Assembly: GCA_964016885.1 (NCBI GenBank) | Contig: OZ024746.1 | Coordinates: forward strand, 13,764,001-13,828,000 | Reading direction: 5' to 3' | Length of the DNA stretch: 64,000 nt | DNA from: Eledone cirrhosa | Taxonomy: Eukaryota | Shown here: positions 1,133 through 57,446 of the stretch, piece after piece | Layout of the letters: the number at the start of each line of letters is the position of its first letter | Position numbering within the stretch: position 1 is the first letter of the stretch | The notes under the pieces: generated by a model | The model's input: the letters and a program-made list of their open reading frames with translations, nothing else | What the model was told of the DNA's origin: nothing | Database searches by the model: none | Program-made: the position numbers and the translations under genes

Positions 1133-1922
1133 TCAAGATAAGTAGAACAAGTAAAATTCAACCAATTTTTCAAAATAAATCAAAATTAATATACAATTAA
1201 AATTAATCAAAATTAAAAAATATAATATAAATATTTACCTATTCAAATGGCCCTAACTGTACAGTTTCACGGTGCAAAACATTAAATATCACCAGGATAT
1301 TAATGGAAAAGCAACGATCATCAGAGAAGCATTTTCCTGTCCTAGGGTTAAAAACCCCAGGAACGACAAAATATATGACCTCACTCCAACTAATACAGGT
1401 CTGAAAGGTCGTGAAAGTGACCCGTAAATACATTGGTGTATAGTGAAGGCGGGAAATCGTAGACTAGCCGTCTATGATCGCCACTAAAAAAAGATTTTTA
1501 GCAACTAAATAGAACGACAAAGATTTATCTCTACATACTGGAGATTATTGAATAAGGTTAATATATATCTGAGGGTACAATGTACCCCCGGAAATATATA
1601 GTGTGTCTATGATTTAAGGTGGTTCTATGGTAATAATTTGATATACCAGAACTTAATATCAAGATAAGCAGAAATATATATATATGAAAAGATTCAGAAC
1701 CCCGACGGTTGAGCTCCGGCCGTTTCACCAGAGCTAGATCCGAACTAAAACGCCAGTATTCGAACGACGGGAATCTAGTTGAACTTATCAAGGGGTATAA
1801 TCCATATATGGGCAGCCAGTCAAAGCAAAAAATCTTAACACTTTCAGGTCCCACTCTACTACCCCAAGTATCAAGTACTCTGGTGAGTAATGGTCTACTT
1901 GGTTTTTACCACACCCTATCTG
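1133..1922 (-). mobile_element. Penelope-like element 3' fragment between (TA)n tracts
   Basis: Bounded by (TA)n on both sides, with an HHR near the 3' end. The minus-strand ORF 1558-1854 has FDW...LVKRPELN, weakly resembling a GIY-YIG C-terminus. Confidence 0.5.
1245..1334 (-). ncRNA. Minimal type-I hammerhead ribozyme motif with extended stem II
   Basis: Minus strand: AAAUGCUUCU-CUGAUGA-U-CGUUGC..CAUUAAUAUC/GAUAUUUAAUG..GCACCG-U-GAAA-CUGUACAG-UU-AGGGCCAUUU. Helix III is palindromic and stem I pairs at 9 of 10 positions. Confidence 0.8.
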
Positions 1923-2549
1923 ATATATATATATATATATATATATATATATATATCGATCGATCTAGCAGAATACATACATACTTACATACATACATAC
2001 ATTCATATATACATACATTCATACATTTATACATATACATACATACATACATACATACATACATACATACATACATACATACATACATACATACATACAT
2101 GCATATATACATTTATACATAATACATTCACACATACTCACATACATATATACATAATACATACATACATTTATACATATACATTAATACATTAATACAT
2201 TCCAGGAACAGTATAGGCGCCTTATCGGGTTTATTAATATTAATACCGAAAATAAATGCAATCACATAGATTCCGTATATTTTAGATAAATTGATTTGAA
2301 ACCCCCCCCCCCCCCCCCCCAAAAAAAAAAAAAAAATCTGCTCTCAATCTTCTGTTAGTCTCGCAATGTTGATTCACTTAGAATCATTGCATTGAAGCAA
2401 TTCCTTTATTAGAAAGTATCAGAAAAAGTTACATAGCGTATGATCATCTCCTTGAAAGGATGTGCCTCTACGCAAATAAAAAAAAAAATCTAGGTGACAC
2501 AAATCTGGCGCCTACAGCTGGCAATATACATACATGCATATATATGAAA

Positions 2550-3001
2550 TATATGAAATATAAGAATCAAAGAACTGTTCAAAACATTTTTGTGCTTACA
2601 ACTGTTTCCTCCAAACCGAGGTTTGGATTCTTCGGAGCAATTTATTAATGAATGAACAGTTATATGACCTCCTTTTCACCCAAGAGACATACAGATACAT
2701 ATGCAAATATTGTGGGTCAACATTCATCACATCATTTAGAGTGGCAGTACACACTTAGAGATTACATTCATATTAAAAGGTACAATCAAAAATGTTTTGA
2801 ACAGTTCTTTGATTCTTATATTTCATATAACTGCTCTGTAAATCATCTGATGTTTTTACATTGAGCTACTTAACTTACTGGTAATAAGGTAGTAATATAT
2901 TACTGCCTACGACTATTTAGGGTTTGTATAAAAAAATATATATAACTGCAAAAGGTTTTTGTATTTACATAACGATAAATAGTATAATTAATACTACATG
3001 C
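2550..3001. mobile_element. Fold-back HHR element (43-bp inverted arms 2550-2592/2787-2829)
   Basis: The inverted repeat is perfect. The right arm extends to (TA)n at ~3001, and that extension is homologous to 17488-17650 (reverse strand). Confidence 0.65.
2593..2639 (-). ncRNA. Hammerhead motif, U4C core variant
   Basis: UGCU-CCGAAGA-A-UCCAAAC-CUCG-GUUUGGA-G-GAAA-CAGUUG-UA-AGCA. All three stems pair. Confidence 0.7.
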
Positions 3002-3075
3002 ATATATATATATATATATATATATATATATATATATATATATATATATATATATATATATATATATATATATAT

Positions 3076-3661
3076 GAAAAAATGGGGAGAAGAATACTGC
3101 AGGTTGCACATGGATAACATGTAATAAAATAAGTCCCTCATCAGTGATTTGCCGACGATCATAGATATTTCATTGCATTAAAAATCATATACCTCACGTC
3201 GGTGCAATAATAACTAAATTAAGTTATTAGGACAATTAAAACGCGTAAAGCGCGTGAGACAAGATAACAACAAAGAGGAGAGCTAACCGTAGAAGGAAGG
3301 GAACAAGCTTCATAGTTATTCTGTTAGCATAAGCTAGGTGAATATATGAGCGCTTAGAAAAAAGACCTTTCGGGAACGAATTCAAATGTGAGAAAGAGAG
3401 AAAATGTTTTCGTCGCGAACGGGGTGAAGTGAGAAGAGGAGAAACAGTGAGTGAGTGAGTGGAAGTGTGAGGAAGAGTTAACTGACATGACAGAGGGGGC
3501 GAAAGAAAGTAGGAGAAACAGAGAGAACGAGGGAGCAGTAAGAGAGAGAGAGAGAGAGAAAAAAACAGAATCGCAGTTTAGGTAAATATATGTGAAAAAA
3601 TGGGGAGAAGAATACTGCAGGTTGCACATGAATAACATGTAATAAAATAAGTCCCTCATCA
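3076..3661 (-). mobile_element. Family A repeat, partial tandem (period ~518 bp), flanked by (TA)n on both sides
   Basis: 3076-3143 is repeated at ~3594-3661. Homologous to 1-715. Confidence 0.65.
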
Positions 3662-3770
3662 ATATATATATATATATATCCGTATGTGGTTGACGGCTGA
3701 AAGATAAGAGCACTCAATACTTAAGTATAGTTCTAATATTCAATATTATTAAGGCCAGAAAGGGAGTCCT

Positions 3771-3815
3771 TTTTACTCTGGAGTTTCGCCTGTTTATCAC
3801 AGGGTCATCAGACAA
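3771..3815 (-). ncRNA. Hammerhead motif (slightly decayed stem I)
   Basis: UGU-CUGAUGA-C-CCUGU-GAUAA-ACAGG-C-GAAA-CUCCAGAG-UA-AAA. Same family as 11354-11400 (shared tail GTATTGAGTRCTC). The element at ~3680-3815 lies between TA tracts. Confidence 0.7.
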
Positions 3816-55125: not shown

Positions 55126-55163
55126 CCTTTACCGGTTTCGCAGTTCTTCTGCTTTTCAAAAGG
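55126..55163 (-). ncRNA. Hammerhead motif, U3-A8 core variant
   Basis: Reverse complement of 55239-55276. Confidence 0.72.
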
Positions 55164-55238
55164 TGAGTTGAGATGGAGGGTCTGTGGTTTTTCTCACATC
55201 TGATGTGAGAAAAACCACAGACCCTCCATCTCAACTCA

Positions 55239-55276
55239 CCTTTTGAAAAGCAGAAGAACTGCGAAACCGGTAAAGG
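55239..55276 (+). ncRNA. Hammerhead motif, U3-A8 core variant
   Basis: CCUU-UUGAAAA-GCAG-AAGAA-CUGC-GAAA-CCGG-UA-AAGG, followed by AAUAAA. Confidence 0.72.
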
Positions 55277-55438
55277 AACCAAATAAATATATATATTTAA
55301 AAAAAAATAAGACTTCAGTTGCATTTTCGATTTCATCCCTTTTTCTTTATATATATATATATATATATATATATATATATATATATATATATATATATAT
55401 ATATATATATATATATATATATATATATATATATATAT

Positions 55439-55870
55439 TAGTAAAAAGGAAAAGAAAATGCTGACAAATTTTTCCCAGTGAAAAATAGTTTAATTAGGAA
55501 TAAGTATAAATTAGTAATAAGTATTAGTTAGTATTCAGTTTTAGTTTTAAGTTTTTACCGGTTGCGCATTTCTTATGCTTTTCAAAAATAATTTTGAGAG
55601 AGAGTGTTCGGGATTTTTGCTCTAATCTGATCAGTTTTGGAAATTCTTCCTGTTTTATGTGAAAAAAGTGGCTTGGAAGGTATTAAAATTTGGTTGGTTG
55701 TTGAATGTCACGTGAATAAGCACTATAAATTTCGCGCCAATTCGTGTTGCAAAAAGTTTTGTAGTCAAAACAATTTTGATTGGTCGGTAGAAATCACGTG
55801 AATGTTTAAATTGATTTTAGCGCGAACTGGTTTCGCGCCAAATGTAGGTTTGTAGATTTTCCGCTTGATT
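55439..55870 (-). mobile_element. Family D repeat with variant HHR-like motif at 55553-55588
   Basis: Homologous to 45289-45688. UUU-UUGAAAA-GCAU-AAGAA-AUGC-GCAA-CCGG-UA-AAA. Confidence 0.7.
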
Positions 55871-57391
55871 GAGTTGCAGTCATGTTGAGAGGTCAACAGT
55901 TCAGGTGTCTATTAAGACAAATATGTTATTCGATACATTATTCAATATTTTCAGTCATTTTCAAGAACGATTCTCTCAAAAGAACATCAATAACATCAAT
56001 AACAAAAGAGGTGAAATGATGTATAGTATTGTCATAACAACAAGGCGTGTGTGAGTCCAGATTGTACGTACTGCAAGGGGAATCCATTAGGTCCTGGCGT
56101 ATGGGATATTTGTGTACAAATATGTTTGTGCCCATCAATGTGCAATACATGTGTGCGTATGTGTATGTGTGCGTGTCGGCGCGTGTATATCTATAAACAC
56201 CTAAACTTTTTTGAAATGATCTTTGCTAGATGTGATTTGATAGATAGTTTTTGGCTTTGTTTGTTTTTCGACTCTGATGCTTATAATGAACTTGGCAATA
56301 TATTGTCAATTAATTTTGAAGGGTTGACCTTTGTGGTTTATTTTTATTTATTTTTTTATTATTTTTTTATTTTTTTATTATTGTAGTATTTTCTAATATT
56401 ATTTTTTATTATTGTAGTATTTTCTAATATTTTTATTTTTAATATTTTTTTAATATTTTTAATATGTAAATTTTTTAATATGTAATATTTTTAATATGTA
56501 ATATTCTTTCGTAATATTTTTTTTAGTTTTCTATTTTATTATTACTTATTATTATTATTGTTATTTTTTAGTTTTGTTTCTGATATATATTTTTATTAGT
56601 ATATTGAAATCTGCTCTCTATTTCTGCTTGATAGATAATCTTGTAGAGTAAAGACGGGAATAATAATACTCATATATGTATACTCAAATTTTTATACCAC
56701 ATTGAGAATGTTTTCCGTGAACATAGGCTTTGCAGAATTGATCATGTAGATTCACATGGATGTTTGTAGCTATTACATAAACATATGAATTTTTTTAAAA
56801 AACTAAACATAAGTTCATTAATTTTCACACACTATGGTTACTTGTCTCATTCAGGAATACTGATATTTACAATATAGTGGATGTTTTATAAATACATTAA
56901 AACATAGGGTTTTTACGCCTCGCATATATCTGGTTATTTTAAAATTTTTAAATTTTTTCTCTCGCTATATTTTTTTCTCTCTCTATATTTTTTTCTCTCT
57001 ATATATATCTCACTTACATTAATACTAGAGCTAAATAAATAAATAAATAAATAAATGTATCATTGATACATTTACTCAACAGACCTCCCACTACCTAATT
57101 TTCTATATATATATGTATCTATCTCTATTTCCTCTCTCTCTCTATATATATATCTCTTTCTGTTTCTTTACATGAAGTTCTTCTCTTTATCTATCTTTCC
57201 ATCTCTCTATTTTGTTCCATGCATTTCTTCTTCTTCTTCCTTTTCTTCGTTTTCTGTCTTTCTTTCTTTTTTCTCTCTTTCTTTCTCTCTGTGTACAATT
57301 TTTTCACTGCCATATCAACCTCTTCAAATGCAAGTCGATGTTATTACGGTATGTCGAATCTATTTATCTATAAAACTGTTTATATTGTATT

Positions 57392-57446
57392 TTGTCTGAG
57401 GAAGGCATAGCATATTGTTAATACGATATCCCTGAAATATATATAA
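57392..57446 (+). ncRNA. Hammerhead motif (diverged relative of the 24.5-kb family)
   Basis: CUGAGGA-AGG..CCU-GAAA-UAUA-UA. The downstream tail is nearly identical to 24508-24561 and ends in (TA)n. Confidence 0.6.

What the first reader, a model, noticed from the sequence alone, without database searches (positions are those of the whole stretch)
1245..57446. A dense radiation of hammerhead-ribozyme elements living inside (TA)n microsatellites
Seen: about 15 motifs with CUGANGA, a paired stem II, GAAA, a self-complementary (or nearly so) helix III (ACGU, ACUAGU, AUGAUCAU, ACAAUUGU, ACUGUACAGU), UH and a complementary stem I. About 9 more are variant or decayed. They fall in about a dozen families with unrelated flanks, nearly all in short inserts abutting (TA)n, often with AATAAA just downstream. 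Established: minimal type-I HHRs with palindromic helix III mark Penelope-like element pseudo-LTRs and non-LTR retrozymes, and are thought to act as dimers. Inference: the apparent junk between microsatellites is a mostly non-coding, (TA)n-targeting, ribozyme-bearing retroelement system. It may itself contribute to the (TA)n load of this genome. I cannot tell from here how many of these families are already catalogued.
Basis: partly seen in the sequence, partly recalled or inferred. Interest (0 to 1): 0.9.

Follow-up and report, generated by a model that had tools for sequence, protein, structure and literature searches.

The report
Penelope ends and retrozymes in microsatellites
The DNA between this animal's TA microsatellites holds many hammerhead-shaped RNA motifs, predicted but not shown to cut themselves, which sit in cut-off ends of Penelope-like jumping genes and in short non-coding repeats likely pasted in by those genes' enzymes, both known kinds of element, here in very large numbers.

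Summary
In detail: 15 type-I hammerhead motifs with palindromic helix III in 11 insertions, against 0.4 in shuffles, plus about a dozen variant, decayed or half motifs. The reading "one mostly non-coding system" is only partly right. Three window families are pseudo-LTR ends of coding Penelope-like elements (PLEs) whose full units I found in the genome: two Hydra-type, one Neptune-type. A fourth lies behind a PLE remnant. Two are non-coding tandem retrozymes (420-526 bp), one a 2.4-kb non-coding unit. Seven family patterns give 73,387 exact matches; a 590-kb sample suggests roughly 160,000 motifs. The six families mapped end at two fixed TA-like sites behind the ribozyme; 49 of 50 two-armed insertions use one site per arm, the published PLE "tail" pattern, here also on a retrozyme. 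Best mechanism: PLE enzymes prime both cut target ends on one RNA (inferred). Cleavage, circles and expression are untested. Whether the elements create TA is unresolved. Hammerheads in PLEs, TA targeting (including an octopus Hydra element) and retrozymes are published. This scan noted the same system many times on other DNA of this and other genomes. New members of known kinds; scale and mechanism clue add modest interest.

The parts
1130..1673 (-). Family G retrozyme, about one 526-bp unit between TA runs; hammerhead 1324-1255 (helix III ACUGUACAGU)
   Evidence: (233 exact matches, 526-bp tandem spacing)
2550..2996 (.). Family J two-armed stub of a Hydra-type PLE; hammerhead - 2635-2597 with C4 core variant; parent unit about 4.19 kb with 832-aa ORF
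   Evidence: (3,855 matches)
3774..3811 (-). Family I hammerhead, stem I broken (decayed); relative at + 11358-11396
4580..4620 (+). Variant hammerhead-like motif (stem I only about 2 pairs) in a repeated TA-ended family
   Evidence: 25 matches in 20 loci
5365..5392 (-). Family D hammerhead (helix III ACGU, G10.1-C11.1), 3' stub; one relative lies about 400 nt behind a PLE ORF remnant; decayed copy at - 46291-46264
   Evidence: (2,697 matches)
14537..14960 (.). Family A retrozyme, two-armed: long arm (hammerhead - 14788-14758) ends at site 1, about 50-nt inverted arm ends at site 2
19283..19385 (+). Family H hammerhead with one core change, 13-pair stem I, long stem II insert (decayed)
21590..22725 (.). 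Family A retrozyme, two-armed partial tandem; hammerheads - 21936-21906 and + 22440-22470 (helix III ACUAGU)
   Evidence: (23,644 matches)
24103..24560 (.). Family B two-armed pseudo-LTR stub of a Hydra-type PLE; hammerheads - 24297-24249 and + 24461-24509; parent unit 3,747 bp
   Evidence: (30,233 matches)
24572..25221 (.). Family C two-armed stub; hammerheads - 24826-24777 and + 25109-25158; parent unit 2,362 bp without an ATG-ORF over 73 aa
   Evidence: (1,875 matches)
29049..29490 (.). Family F two-armed insertion; hammerhead - 29373-29278 with long stem II insert; 3' half repeated at + 29420-29429; parent not resolved
31203..31260 (+). Family E relative, decayed (C4 core, stem I broken)
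45171..45217 (-). Family E hammerhead (7-pair stem I, 12-pair stem II); parent not resolved
54983..55351 (.). Family K two-armed pseudo-LTR stub of a Neptune-type PLE; U3-A8 hammerheads - 55159-55130 and + 55243-55272; parent unit 4,979 bp with 938-codon open frame
   Evidence: 10,850 matches
57396..57445 (+). Family B hammerhead, single stub ending at site 1 before (TA)n
104..710 (+). Family L tandem non-coding unit (445-531 bp) with CUGAYGA but no GAAA behind it; fails the hammerhead descriptor; another copy at - 3144
   Evidence: (5,763 matches)

Best explanation
The motifs are hammerhead-shaped RNA elements, predicted to self-cleave as dimers, lying in 5'-truncated ends of coding Penelope-like retrotransposons and in non-coding tandem retrozymes that PLE enzymes likely copy into (TA)n. 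Shown: motif structure, covariation, coding parents for families B, J and K, tandem non-coding units for A and G, TA-abutting ends at two fixed sites per family, and two-armed insertions with one site per arm. Inferred: a PLE protein nicks both strands of a TA array; each end primes on the same RNA at a short TA-like site (site 1 or site 2, 60-170 nt apart, behind the ribozyme); the two cDNAs grow, stop early and are joined head to head. Inferred: because priming is internal, copying passes the cleavage site, so the template is an uncut multimer or a ligated circle; on the retrozyme this gives homogeneous tandem arrays on both arms. About 85% for the identity, about 55% for two-ended priming on one RNA, about 45% for circles.
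For: Structure far above chance. Family B, 38 copies picked by their downstream tail: 91.4% of stem cells paired, 46 cells with changes on both sides versus 17.7 shuffled, 0 of 500; slid controls 35-55%. Family K motif flanks a 938-codon RT + GIY-YIG frame on both sides; B and J motifs flank Hydra-type ORFs. A and G: tandem, non-coding, GC 32-38%, circular fold z -9.7, -7.5, -5.7 without the TA-rich part, -5.9 for G. Two end sites per family. Two-armed insertions: 49 of 49 mixed, 49 of 50 in a re-run with other settings and family J added. Arms of one family-A insertion differ by a median 2% (19 insertions) versus 8% between insertions. In 10 of 37 two-armed insertions of B, C, K, J the site-1 arm reaches over 100 nt further 5' than the site-2 arm, which still holds tail sequence the other lacks, so neither arm can be a fold-back copy of the other. 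PMC11167929: an Anolis PLE protein cuts and extends both strands and starts at two internal RNA sites that define the tail.
Against: No cleavage, RNA end, circle or priming was observed. Only 5 of 32 sampled motifs have the G10.1-C11.1 pair that PMC4209133 calls highly conserved, so many may be weak or dead; PMC4209133 reports low activity, the 2026 preprint found 1 of 9 dimers active, and PMC11167929 found cleavage dispensable for insertion in vitro. In PMC11167929 the start site is not homologous to the cut DNA, whereas here the sites continue in TA-like letters. No sequence homology links A, G or C to any of 10 sampled coding PLE regions, so the partner enzyme is not identified. Family B covariation partly reflects relatedness (pairs with double changes 5 versus 4.8 shuffled). 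Arrays were chosen through a young-variant pattern; 5 of 12 runs of 3 or more units are not homogeneous. 10 of 49 mixed two-armed cases are symmetric and 24 have the longer site-2 arm, which fold-back also explains; arm breakpoints are uncertain by about 50 nt. Families E, F, H, I are unresolved.
Confidence: 0.75

Rival explanations
1. Same elements, but the inverted arm is made by self-priming (fold-back) on the first cDNA or on an antisense template, and site 1 is where the copy is cut or joined.
For: Proposed in PMC3846280 (passages). Arms are near-identical; several window insertions are almost perfect hairpins; 34 of 49 mixed cases have the site-2 arm longer or equal.
Against: 10 of 37 insertions of the long-unit families have a clearly longer site-1 arm plus a site-2 arm with tail sequence; some site-2 arms are no more than the tail (window 14537-14960, 2550-2996).
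Confidence: 0.2
2. All families, A and G included, are DNA-level tandem satellites or stubs derived from PLE pseudo-LTRs; the ribozyme is a passenger and no RNA circle is involved.
For: A 30-unit array is one old clade with later local duplications. The 2026 preprint discusses satellite-like amplification. Cleavage was not needed in vitro.
Against: Family A is dispersed in over 23,000 exact matches with fixed RT-type ends and inverted arms; identical units occur at separate loci; all 7 units on both arms of one insertion share private variants; the unit folds far better than shuffles.
Confidence: 0.15
3. One reading: one new, mostly non-coding ribozyme retroelement system that generates much of the genome's (TA)n.
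For: 240 of 471 TA-edged flanks in the random sample recur elsewhere and end at TA there too, versus 23 of 180 CA edges, 13 of 86 GA edges and 19 of 354 random flanks. Family A carries its own TA run (mean longest run 7 units). Each insertion splits one array into two.
Against: The most numerous family (B) and K, J are coding PLE ends. Association does not give direction; the database was enriched for these families and some recurrent ends are other repeats. Internal TA of A is about 0.3 Mb against about 108 Mb of (TA)6+ (3.6%).
Confidence: 0.1
4. Chance matches in AT-rich, palindrome-rich repeat DNA.
For: CTGANGA alone is near chance; Rfam gives no gathering-level match; the wide descriptor picks up a few false hits in satellites and a SINE-like repeat.
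Against: 11 versus 0.01 and 15 versus 0.37 in shuffles; 32 versus 0-1 in 590 kb; covariation; position in pseudo-LTRs of PLE ORFs.
Confidence: 0.01

Closest known systems
Minimal type-I hammerheads of metazoan PLE pseudo-LTRs (Cervera and De la Pena 2014, PMC4209133)
   Same: Type-I order, palindromic helix III, many variable families per genome, mostly single motifs in truncated copies, pairs on opposite strands 100-700 bp apart, U3-A8 core variant.
   Different: Most motifs here lack G10.1-C11.1; helix III palindromes reach 8-10 nt and stem II inserts about 80 nt; numbers (about 10^5) exceed the 2,000-9,000 given there.
Hydra clade PLEs, including Hydra-1_Obim of Octopus bimaculoides (Craig et al. 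2021, PMC8557442)
   Same: Families B and J: DKT, RW-R/K, CxCX5C linker, CxxC and CxH motifs, hammerhead in the end repeat, (TA)n insertion. By-eye motif match to the Hydra-1_Obim protein in the supplement.
   Different: Units of 3.75 and 4.19 kb versus generally under 3 kb; hammerhead sequence differs from that listed for Hydra-1_oBim; family B tail word absent from the supplement; tens of thousands of stubs.
Neptune-type PLEs (as defined in PMC8557442)
   Same: Family K: GxKF, DKG, CX4CxxC linker, C-terminal GIY-YIG, microsatellite bias, tandem plus inverted layout with one-sided tail.
   Different: U3-A8 core; tail about 66 nt versus 30-40; clade not confirmed by a tree.
Animal non-LTR retrozymes (Cervera and de la Pena 2020, PMC7229834; Li, Clavereau, Pollet 2026, 10.64898/2026.07.22.740005)
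   Same: Families A and G: tandem, non-coding, low GC, one type-I hammerhead per unit, strongly self-paired when folded as a circle, co-occurring with PLEs.
   Different: PLE-like rather than canonical motif; TA targeting, inverted arm and two fixed end sites (the words microsatellite and inverted do not occur in PMC7229834); no homology found to a PLE pseudo-LTR; circles not shown.
PLE tail and internal initiation (Arkhipova et al. 2013, PMC3846280; Frangieh et al. 2024, PMC11167929)
   Same: Two internal start sites; tail on only one of two inverted repeats; both target strands extended.
   Different: Tails of 60-170 nt; sites have 2-5 nt likeness to the TA target; pattern counted on 50 insertions and seen on a non-coding element.

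Membership tests
Type-I (minimal) hammerhead of PLEs | Core CUGANGA (or U3-A8), GAAA, UH in type-I order with stems I and II | tested here: met
Type-I (minimal) hammerhead of PLEs | Palindromic helix III / loop 3 | tested here: met
   required >=75% by the descriptor; perfect in 24 of 32 sampled motifs
Type-I (minimal) hammerhead of PLEs | Compensatory changes in stems within a family | tested here: met
   family B only; relatedness not removed
Type-I (minimal) hammerhead of PLEs | Extra nucleotide after A9 and G10.1-C11.1 pair | tested here: not met
   G-C closing pair in 5 of 32 sampled motifs; in the window family D and K have it, most others not
Type-I (minimal) hammerhead of PLEs | Self-cleavage as dimer | not testable with these tools
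   needs an assay
Hydra-clade PLE (families B, J) | Single ORF, RT then C-terminal endonuclease, between hammerhead-bearing direct repeats | tested here: met
   J: 832 aa open in L278-L280; B: two overlapping frames in L205, 532-aa 3' part in L210. Pfam found nothing for B
Hydra-clade PLE (families B, J) | DKT, RWK, CxCX5C linker, CxxC and CxH around E and N | tested here: met
   RWR in place of RWK
Hydra-clade PLE (families B, J) | Insertion into (TA)n | tested here: met
Hydra-clade PLE (families B, J) | Generally under 3 kb (descriptive, not defining) | tested here: not met
   3,747 bp and about 4,190 bp
Hydra-clade PLE (families B, J) | Placement in the clade on an RT tree | not tested
   reference proteins seen only as paper text
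Neptune-type PLE (family K) | RT + C-terminal GIY-YIG, GxKF, DKG, CX2-5CxxC linker | tested here: met
Neptune-type PLE (family K) | Placement on an RT tree | not tested
   no tree of proteins built
Non-LTR retrozyme (families A, G) | Short tandem non-coding units of low GC, one type-I hammerhead each | tested here: met
   420-526 bp, above the 150-450 of PMC7229834, inside the 51-972 of the 2026 preprint
Non-LTR retrozyme (families A, G) | Highly self-paired predicted circle | tested here: met
Non-LTR retrozyme (families A, G) | Canonical hammerhead with loop 1-loop 2 contacts | not tested
   loop 1 not analysed; motif looks PLE-like
Non-LTR retrozyme (families A, G) | Expressed as linear and circular RNA | not testable with these tools
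   needs RNA data of the organism
Hammerhead (family L) | GAAA and UH behind stem II | tested here: not met
   circular fold z +0.1

The most novel reading that the evidence does not exclude
This genome carries on the order of 10^5 hammerheads, far denser than in any genome in the papers read, and its insertions record a general PLE mechanism: a dimeric enzyme primes both ends of a cut TA array at two fixed sites on one RNA, the trailing polymerase displacing the leading cDNA, so that ribozyme-made RNA circles are rolled into two-armed arrays; retrozymes ride this without sequence likeness to the PLE, carry their own TA target, and the system multiplies the genome's TA arrays.
Probability: 0.35. 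Interest if true: 0.7.

Novelty: new member of a known kind. Interest (0 to 1): 0.4.

Why it matters
The kinds are known, but two open questions become testable here. First, how PLEs make their tandem and inverted insertions: young families with intact ORFs (J in three loci, K) and two sharply defined end sites give ready substrates for a two-ended priming test. Second, whether PLEs mobilise retrozymes, so far argued from co-occurrence and homology: family A shows the PLE insertion footprint directly, with identical units at separate loci. A recent Octopus vulgaris repeat annotation does not use the word ribozyme in its main text, so this layer of octopod repeats may be largely uncatalogued.

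Tried and rejected
Rfam scan of the whole window: swamped by microsatellite matches, no hammerhead among the 150 rows shown. DNA search of the genome with family A found nothing because common words are skipped; patterns were used instead. RNA evidence: no RNA holder listed; laying four contig sets of unknown type showed presence only; neither bears on expression. Period-2 pattern in array L222 first suggested a circular heterodimer template; rejected as evidence, because it is clear in 1 of 12 runs and the long array shows local DNA duplications. Idea that the 30-unit array is a chain of unrelated monomers: rejected, it is one clade (99/87). Empty-site test of TA growth: confounded because neighbouring inserts all end in TA; output was cut; inconclusive. 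Partner search by nucleotide homology between A, G, C, L and 10 coding PLE regions: only low-complexity matches. An apparent 365-bp tandem for family E was an inverted pair. AATAAA as a poly(A) signal: present in 5 families, overlapping stem I in B and C; processing there would remove the end sites, so no role is assigned. Lunse et al. 2017 is not held; only its title was seen. Dfam and Repbase could not be searched. Supplements of the 2026 preprint are closed and may list invertebrate families; supplements of PMC4209133 and PMC7229834 were not opened. I did not identify the assembly.

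
Full report
Observation. I wrote a hammerhead descriptor that allows a mismatch or extra base at the foot of stem II, long stem II inserts and a palindromic helix III. It finds 11 strict motifs in the window against 0.01 +/- 0.10 in 200 local dinucleotide shuffles, and 15 against 0.37 +/- 0.62 when U3-A8 and C4 cores and 3-pair stems are admitted. 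The 15 are 11 insertions in 9 families, as four pairs are inverted arms of one insertion. About a dozen more sites are decayed, variant or halves. 18 of 21 tabulated sites have (TA)5+ within 300 nt downstream and 9 of 21 have AATAAA within 45 nt. Rfam reaches only 18.5 of 52 bits on two of them. For family B, 38 full copies collected by their downstream tail (38 of 54 anchored segments; 16 truncated or unrelated ones were dropped) keep 91.4% of stem cells paired, with 46 double-sided changes against 17.7 in shuffles (0 of 500), though the number of pairs with such changes is not above shuffles.

Scale. The window lies in a 2.996-Gb genome, likely an octopod (inferred from the likeness to Hydra-1_Obim and from recalled SINE-like repeats; not tested). 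Exact pattern counts, each with a reversed-pattern control of 0: A 23,644, B 30,233, C 1,875, D 2,697, G 233, J 3,855, K 10,850; sum 73,387. In 59 stretches of 10 kb taken at fixed offsets on 19 contigs, 32 motifs were found (54 per Mb; 0-1 in each of 10 shuffles), or 46 with the wider descriptor (a few of them false). That extrapolates to roughly 160,000 (my arithmetic; Poisson range about 110,000-230,000, wider in truth because hits cluster). The papers read give about 9,000 for Xenopus tropicalis, over 6,000 for a coral, about 5,000 for a mussel and up to 120,000 for the much larger axolotl genome. The window, at 13 per 64 kb under the sample's settings, is denser than average. 24 of 32 sampled motifs have (TA)5+ within 300 nt downstream, versus 33% at random positions of the same loci (max 59% in 1000 draws).

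What carries the motifs. [quoted passage not shown] Family K of the window is the end repeat of one of these: the same U3-A8 motif lies on both sides of a 938-codon frame, 4,979 bp apart, with Neptune-type motifs. Family B flanks a 3,747-bp unit and family J a unit of about 4.19 kb; their ORFs show DKT, RWR, a CxCX5C linker, CxxC and CxH, the marks of the Hydra clade in PMC8557442 (section 11 read whole), whose members nearly all insert in (TA)n and include Hydra-1_Obim (supplement passages). J has an open 832-aa frame in three of four loci fetched. Family D had a PLE remnant upstream in 1 of 20 loci. The window itself holds no PLE coding sequence: these are 5'-truncated stubs. Families A (420-500 bp) and G (526 bp) are tandem, non-coding and fold as circles far better than shuffles: retrozymes. 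Family C is a 2,362-bp unit without a long ORF. E, F, H, I are unresolved. Family L (5,763 matches, 445-531-bp tandem) keeps CUGAYGA but has GAAA only upstream, and fails the test.

Insertion anatomy. The 3' ends are not at the predicted cut but at two fixed sites behind it: A about +213/+273, B +49/+140, C +57/+200, K +75/+141, J +42/+208, G +61/+121, the G short site seen once. 57 of 70 family-A ends abut TA; D ends are more scattered. The sites continue in TA-like letters. Among head-to-head two-armed insertions with both ends at a defined site, 49 of 49 (A 21, one a local duplicate, B 7, C 12, K 9; 15 more two-armed clusters had an end elsewhere) and 49 of 50 in a re-run with J added (one A insertion with site 1 twice) use one site per arm. 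The arms of one family-A insertion differ by a median 2% against 8% between insertions. A tail on only one inverted repeat is published for PLEs (PMC3846280 passages; PMC8557442 passages), and PMC11167929 (parts 1-2 of 4) ties it to two internal RT start sites, with both target strands extended. In 10 of 37 two-armed insertions of B, C, K and J the site-1 arm reaches more than 100 nt further 5' than the site-2 arm, which nonetheless holds tail sequence (my count from the printed lengths; breakpoints uncertain by about 50 nt); fold-back copying of one arm cannot give these unless later deletions intervened.

Mechanism. Shown: the anatomy above. Inferred: a PLE protein cuts both strands of a TA array, each end primes at one of the two sites on the same RNA, the trailing polymerase either stops at the leading one (tail-only arm) or displaces its cDNA (PLE RTs lack RNase H; recalled), and the two cDNAs are joined. 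Since copying starts behind the ribozyme and runs through it, the template is uncut or religated. 7 of 12 tandem runs of three or more A units differ by at most 2 substitutions between neighbours, and one insertion shares private variants across 7 units on both arms, which fits rolling round one circle but also a homogeneous source array; the arrays were picked through a young-variant pattern. Against activity: only 5 of 32 sampled motifs have G10.1-C11.1; PMC4209133 (parts 1-2 of 4) reports low activity; the 2026 preprint (parts 1-3 of 5) found 1 of 9 dimers active. No homology names the retrozymes' partner among 10 coding regions tried.

The TA load. 240 of 471 TA-edged flanks in the sample recur elsewhere and end at TA there as well, against 13% of CA edges, 15% of GA edges and 5% of random flanks; 203 of 346 TA blocks have such a side (the 1.48-Mb database was enriched for these families and some ends are other repeats). 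So TA arrays and element ends are tightly coupled, but direction is open: family A's internal TA adds about 0.3 Mb to about 108 Mb, and the empty-site test failed.

Novelty. Each ingredient is in print: PLE hammerheads, TA preference, an octopus Hydra element with a hammerhead, retrozymes, PLEs as their proposed carriers (PMC7229834, part 2 of 6 and passages; review PMC6765202 passages). Seven paper searches listed no paper on cephalopod retrozymes or on two-ended priming in PLEs; the library lacks most subscription papers, and Dfam and Repbase were not searchable. PMC13282606 (passages) lists 31 recently active Penelope-like families in Octopus vulgaris and does not mention ribozymes. This scan has noted the same system, and the two-arm rule, on other pieces of this genome and in other genomes; those notes are not independent support. 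Verdict: new members of known kinds, remarkable in number, with a countable clue to the PLE insertion mechanism. Interest 0.4.

Noticed in passing
window 104-710 (+), 3090-3260 (-); L261-L263: Family L: 445-531-bp TA-ended tandem unit with conserved CUGAYGA, a 4-pair match to a word about 85 nt upstream, and GAAA before rather than after it. The same order appears at the end of Naiad_Obim in the Craig supplement. No hammerhead fold found.
   Followed up: partly
L226-L227 (G000:C1:53355000-53371500): A family-A array of over 30 units, each about 7% from its neighbours, one clade with local duplications: a retrozyme insertion turning into a satellite.
   Followed up: yes
window 1686-1922; many loci (L003, L026, L210): A very common TA-ended family often forming short hairpins; 66 matches in 46 loci; no hammerhead seen; one copy sits inside the internal TA run of a family-A unit with TA36 and TA31 on its sides.
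   Followed up: partly
window 28621-28888 (+), 55934-56205 (-), 45966-46140: 3' untranslated stubs of other coding Neptune-type PLE families, truncated behind or before their hammerhead.
   Followed up: partly
window 30572-30818, 12660-12725, 53365-53410, 58580-58680: Long near-perfect DNA hairpins without an intact hammerhead; the first looks like a two-armed stub of another family.
   Followed up: no
window 33470-36780: A 3.3-kb array of a 20-bp unit; also a 38-bp tandem at 13040-13400 and a long (TTC)n run at 32650-32970.
   Followed up: no
window 11480-11660, 26660-26830, 43270-43730, 53630-53920: Dispersed SINE-like repeat; the label octopus SINE is recalled and comes from no call.
   Followed up: no
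window 32060-32350 (+), 50940-51100 (+): Short stretches with splice-site-like edges and open frames that may be exons of a host gene; the elements would then lie in introns.
   Followed up: no
L113, L114, L117, L122, L124; L120, L128: Further coding PLE families with their own hammerheads (helix III AGUACU with a 3-pair stem II; AAUU), not present in the window.
   Followed up: partly
Family A sequence is held by runs filed under four coded organisms; in three of them only at low depth or as a short piece, so sharing across species is not established.
   Followed up: partly
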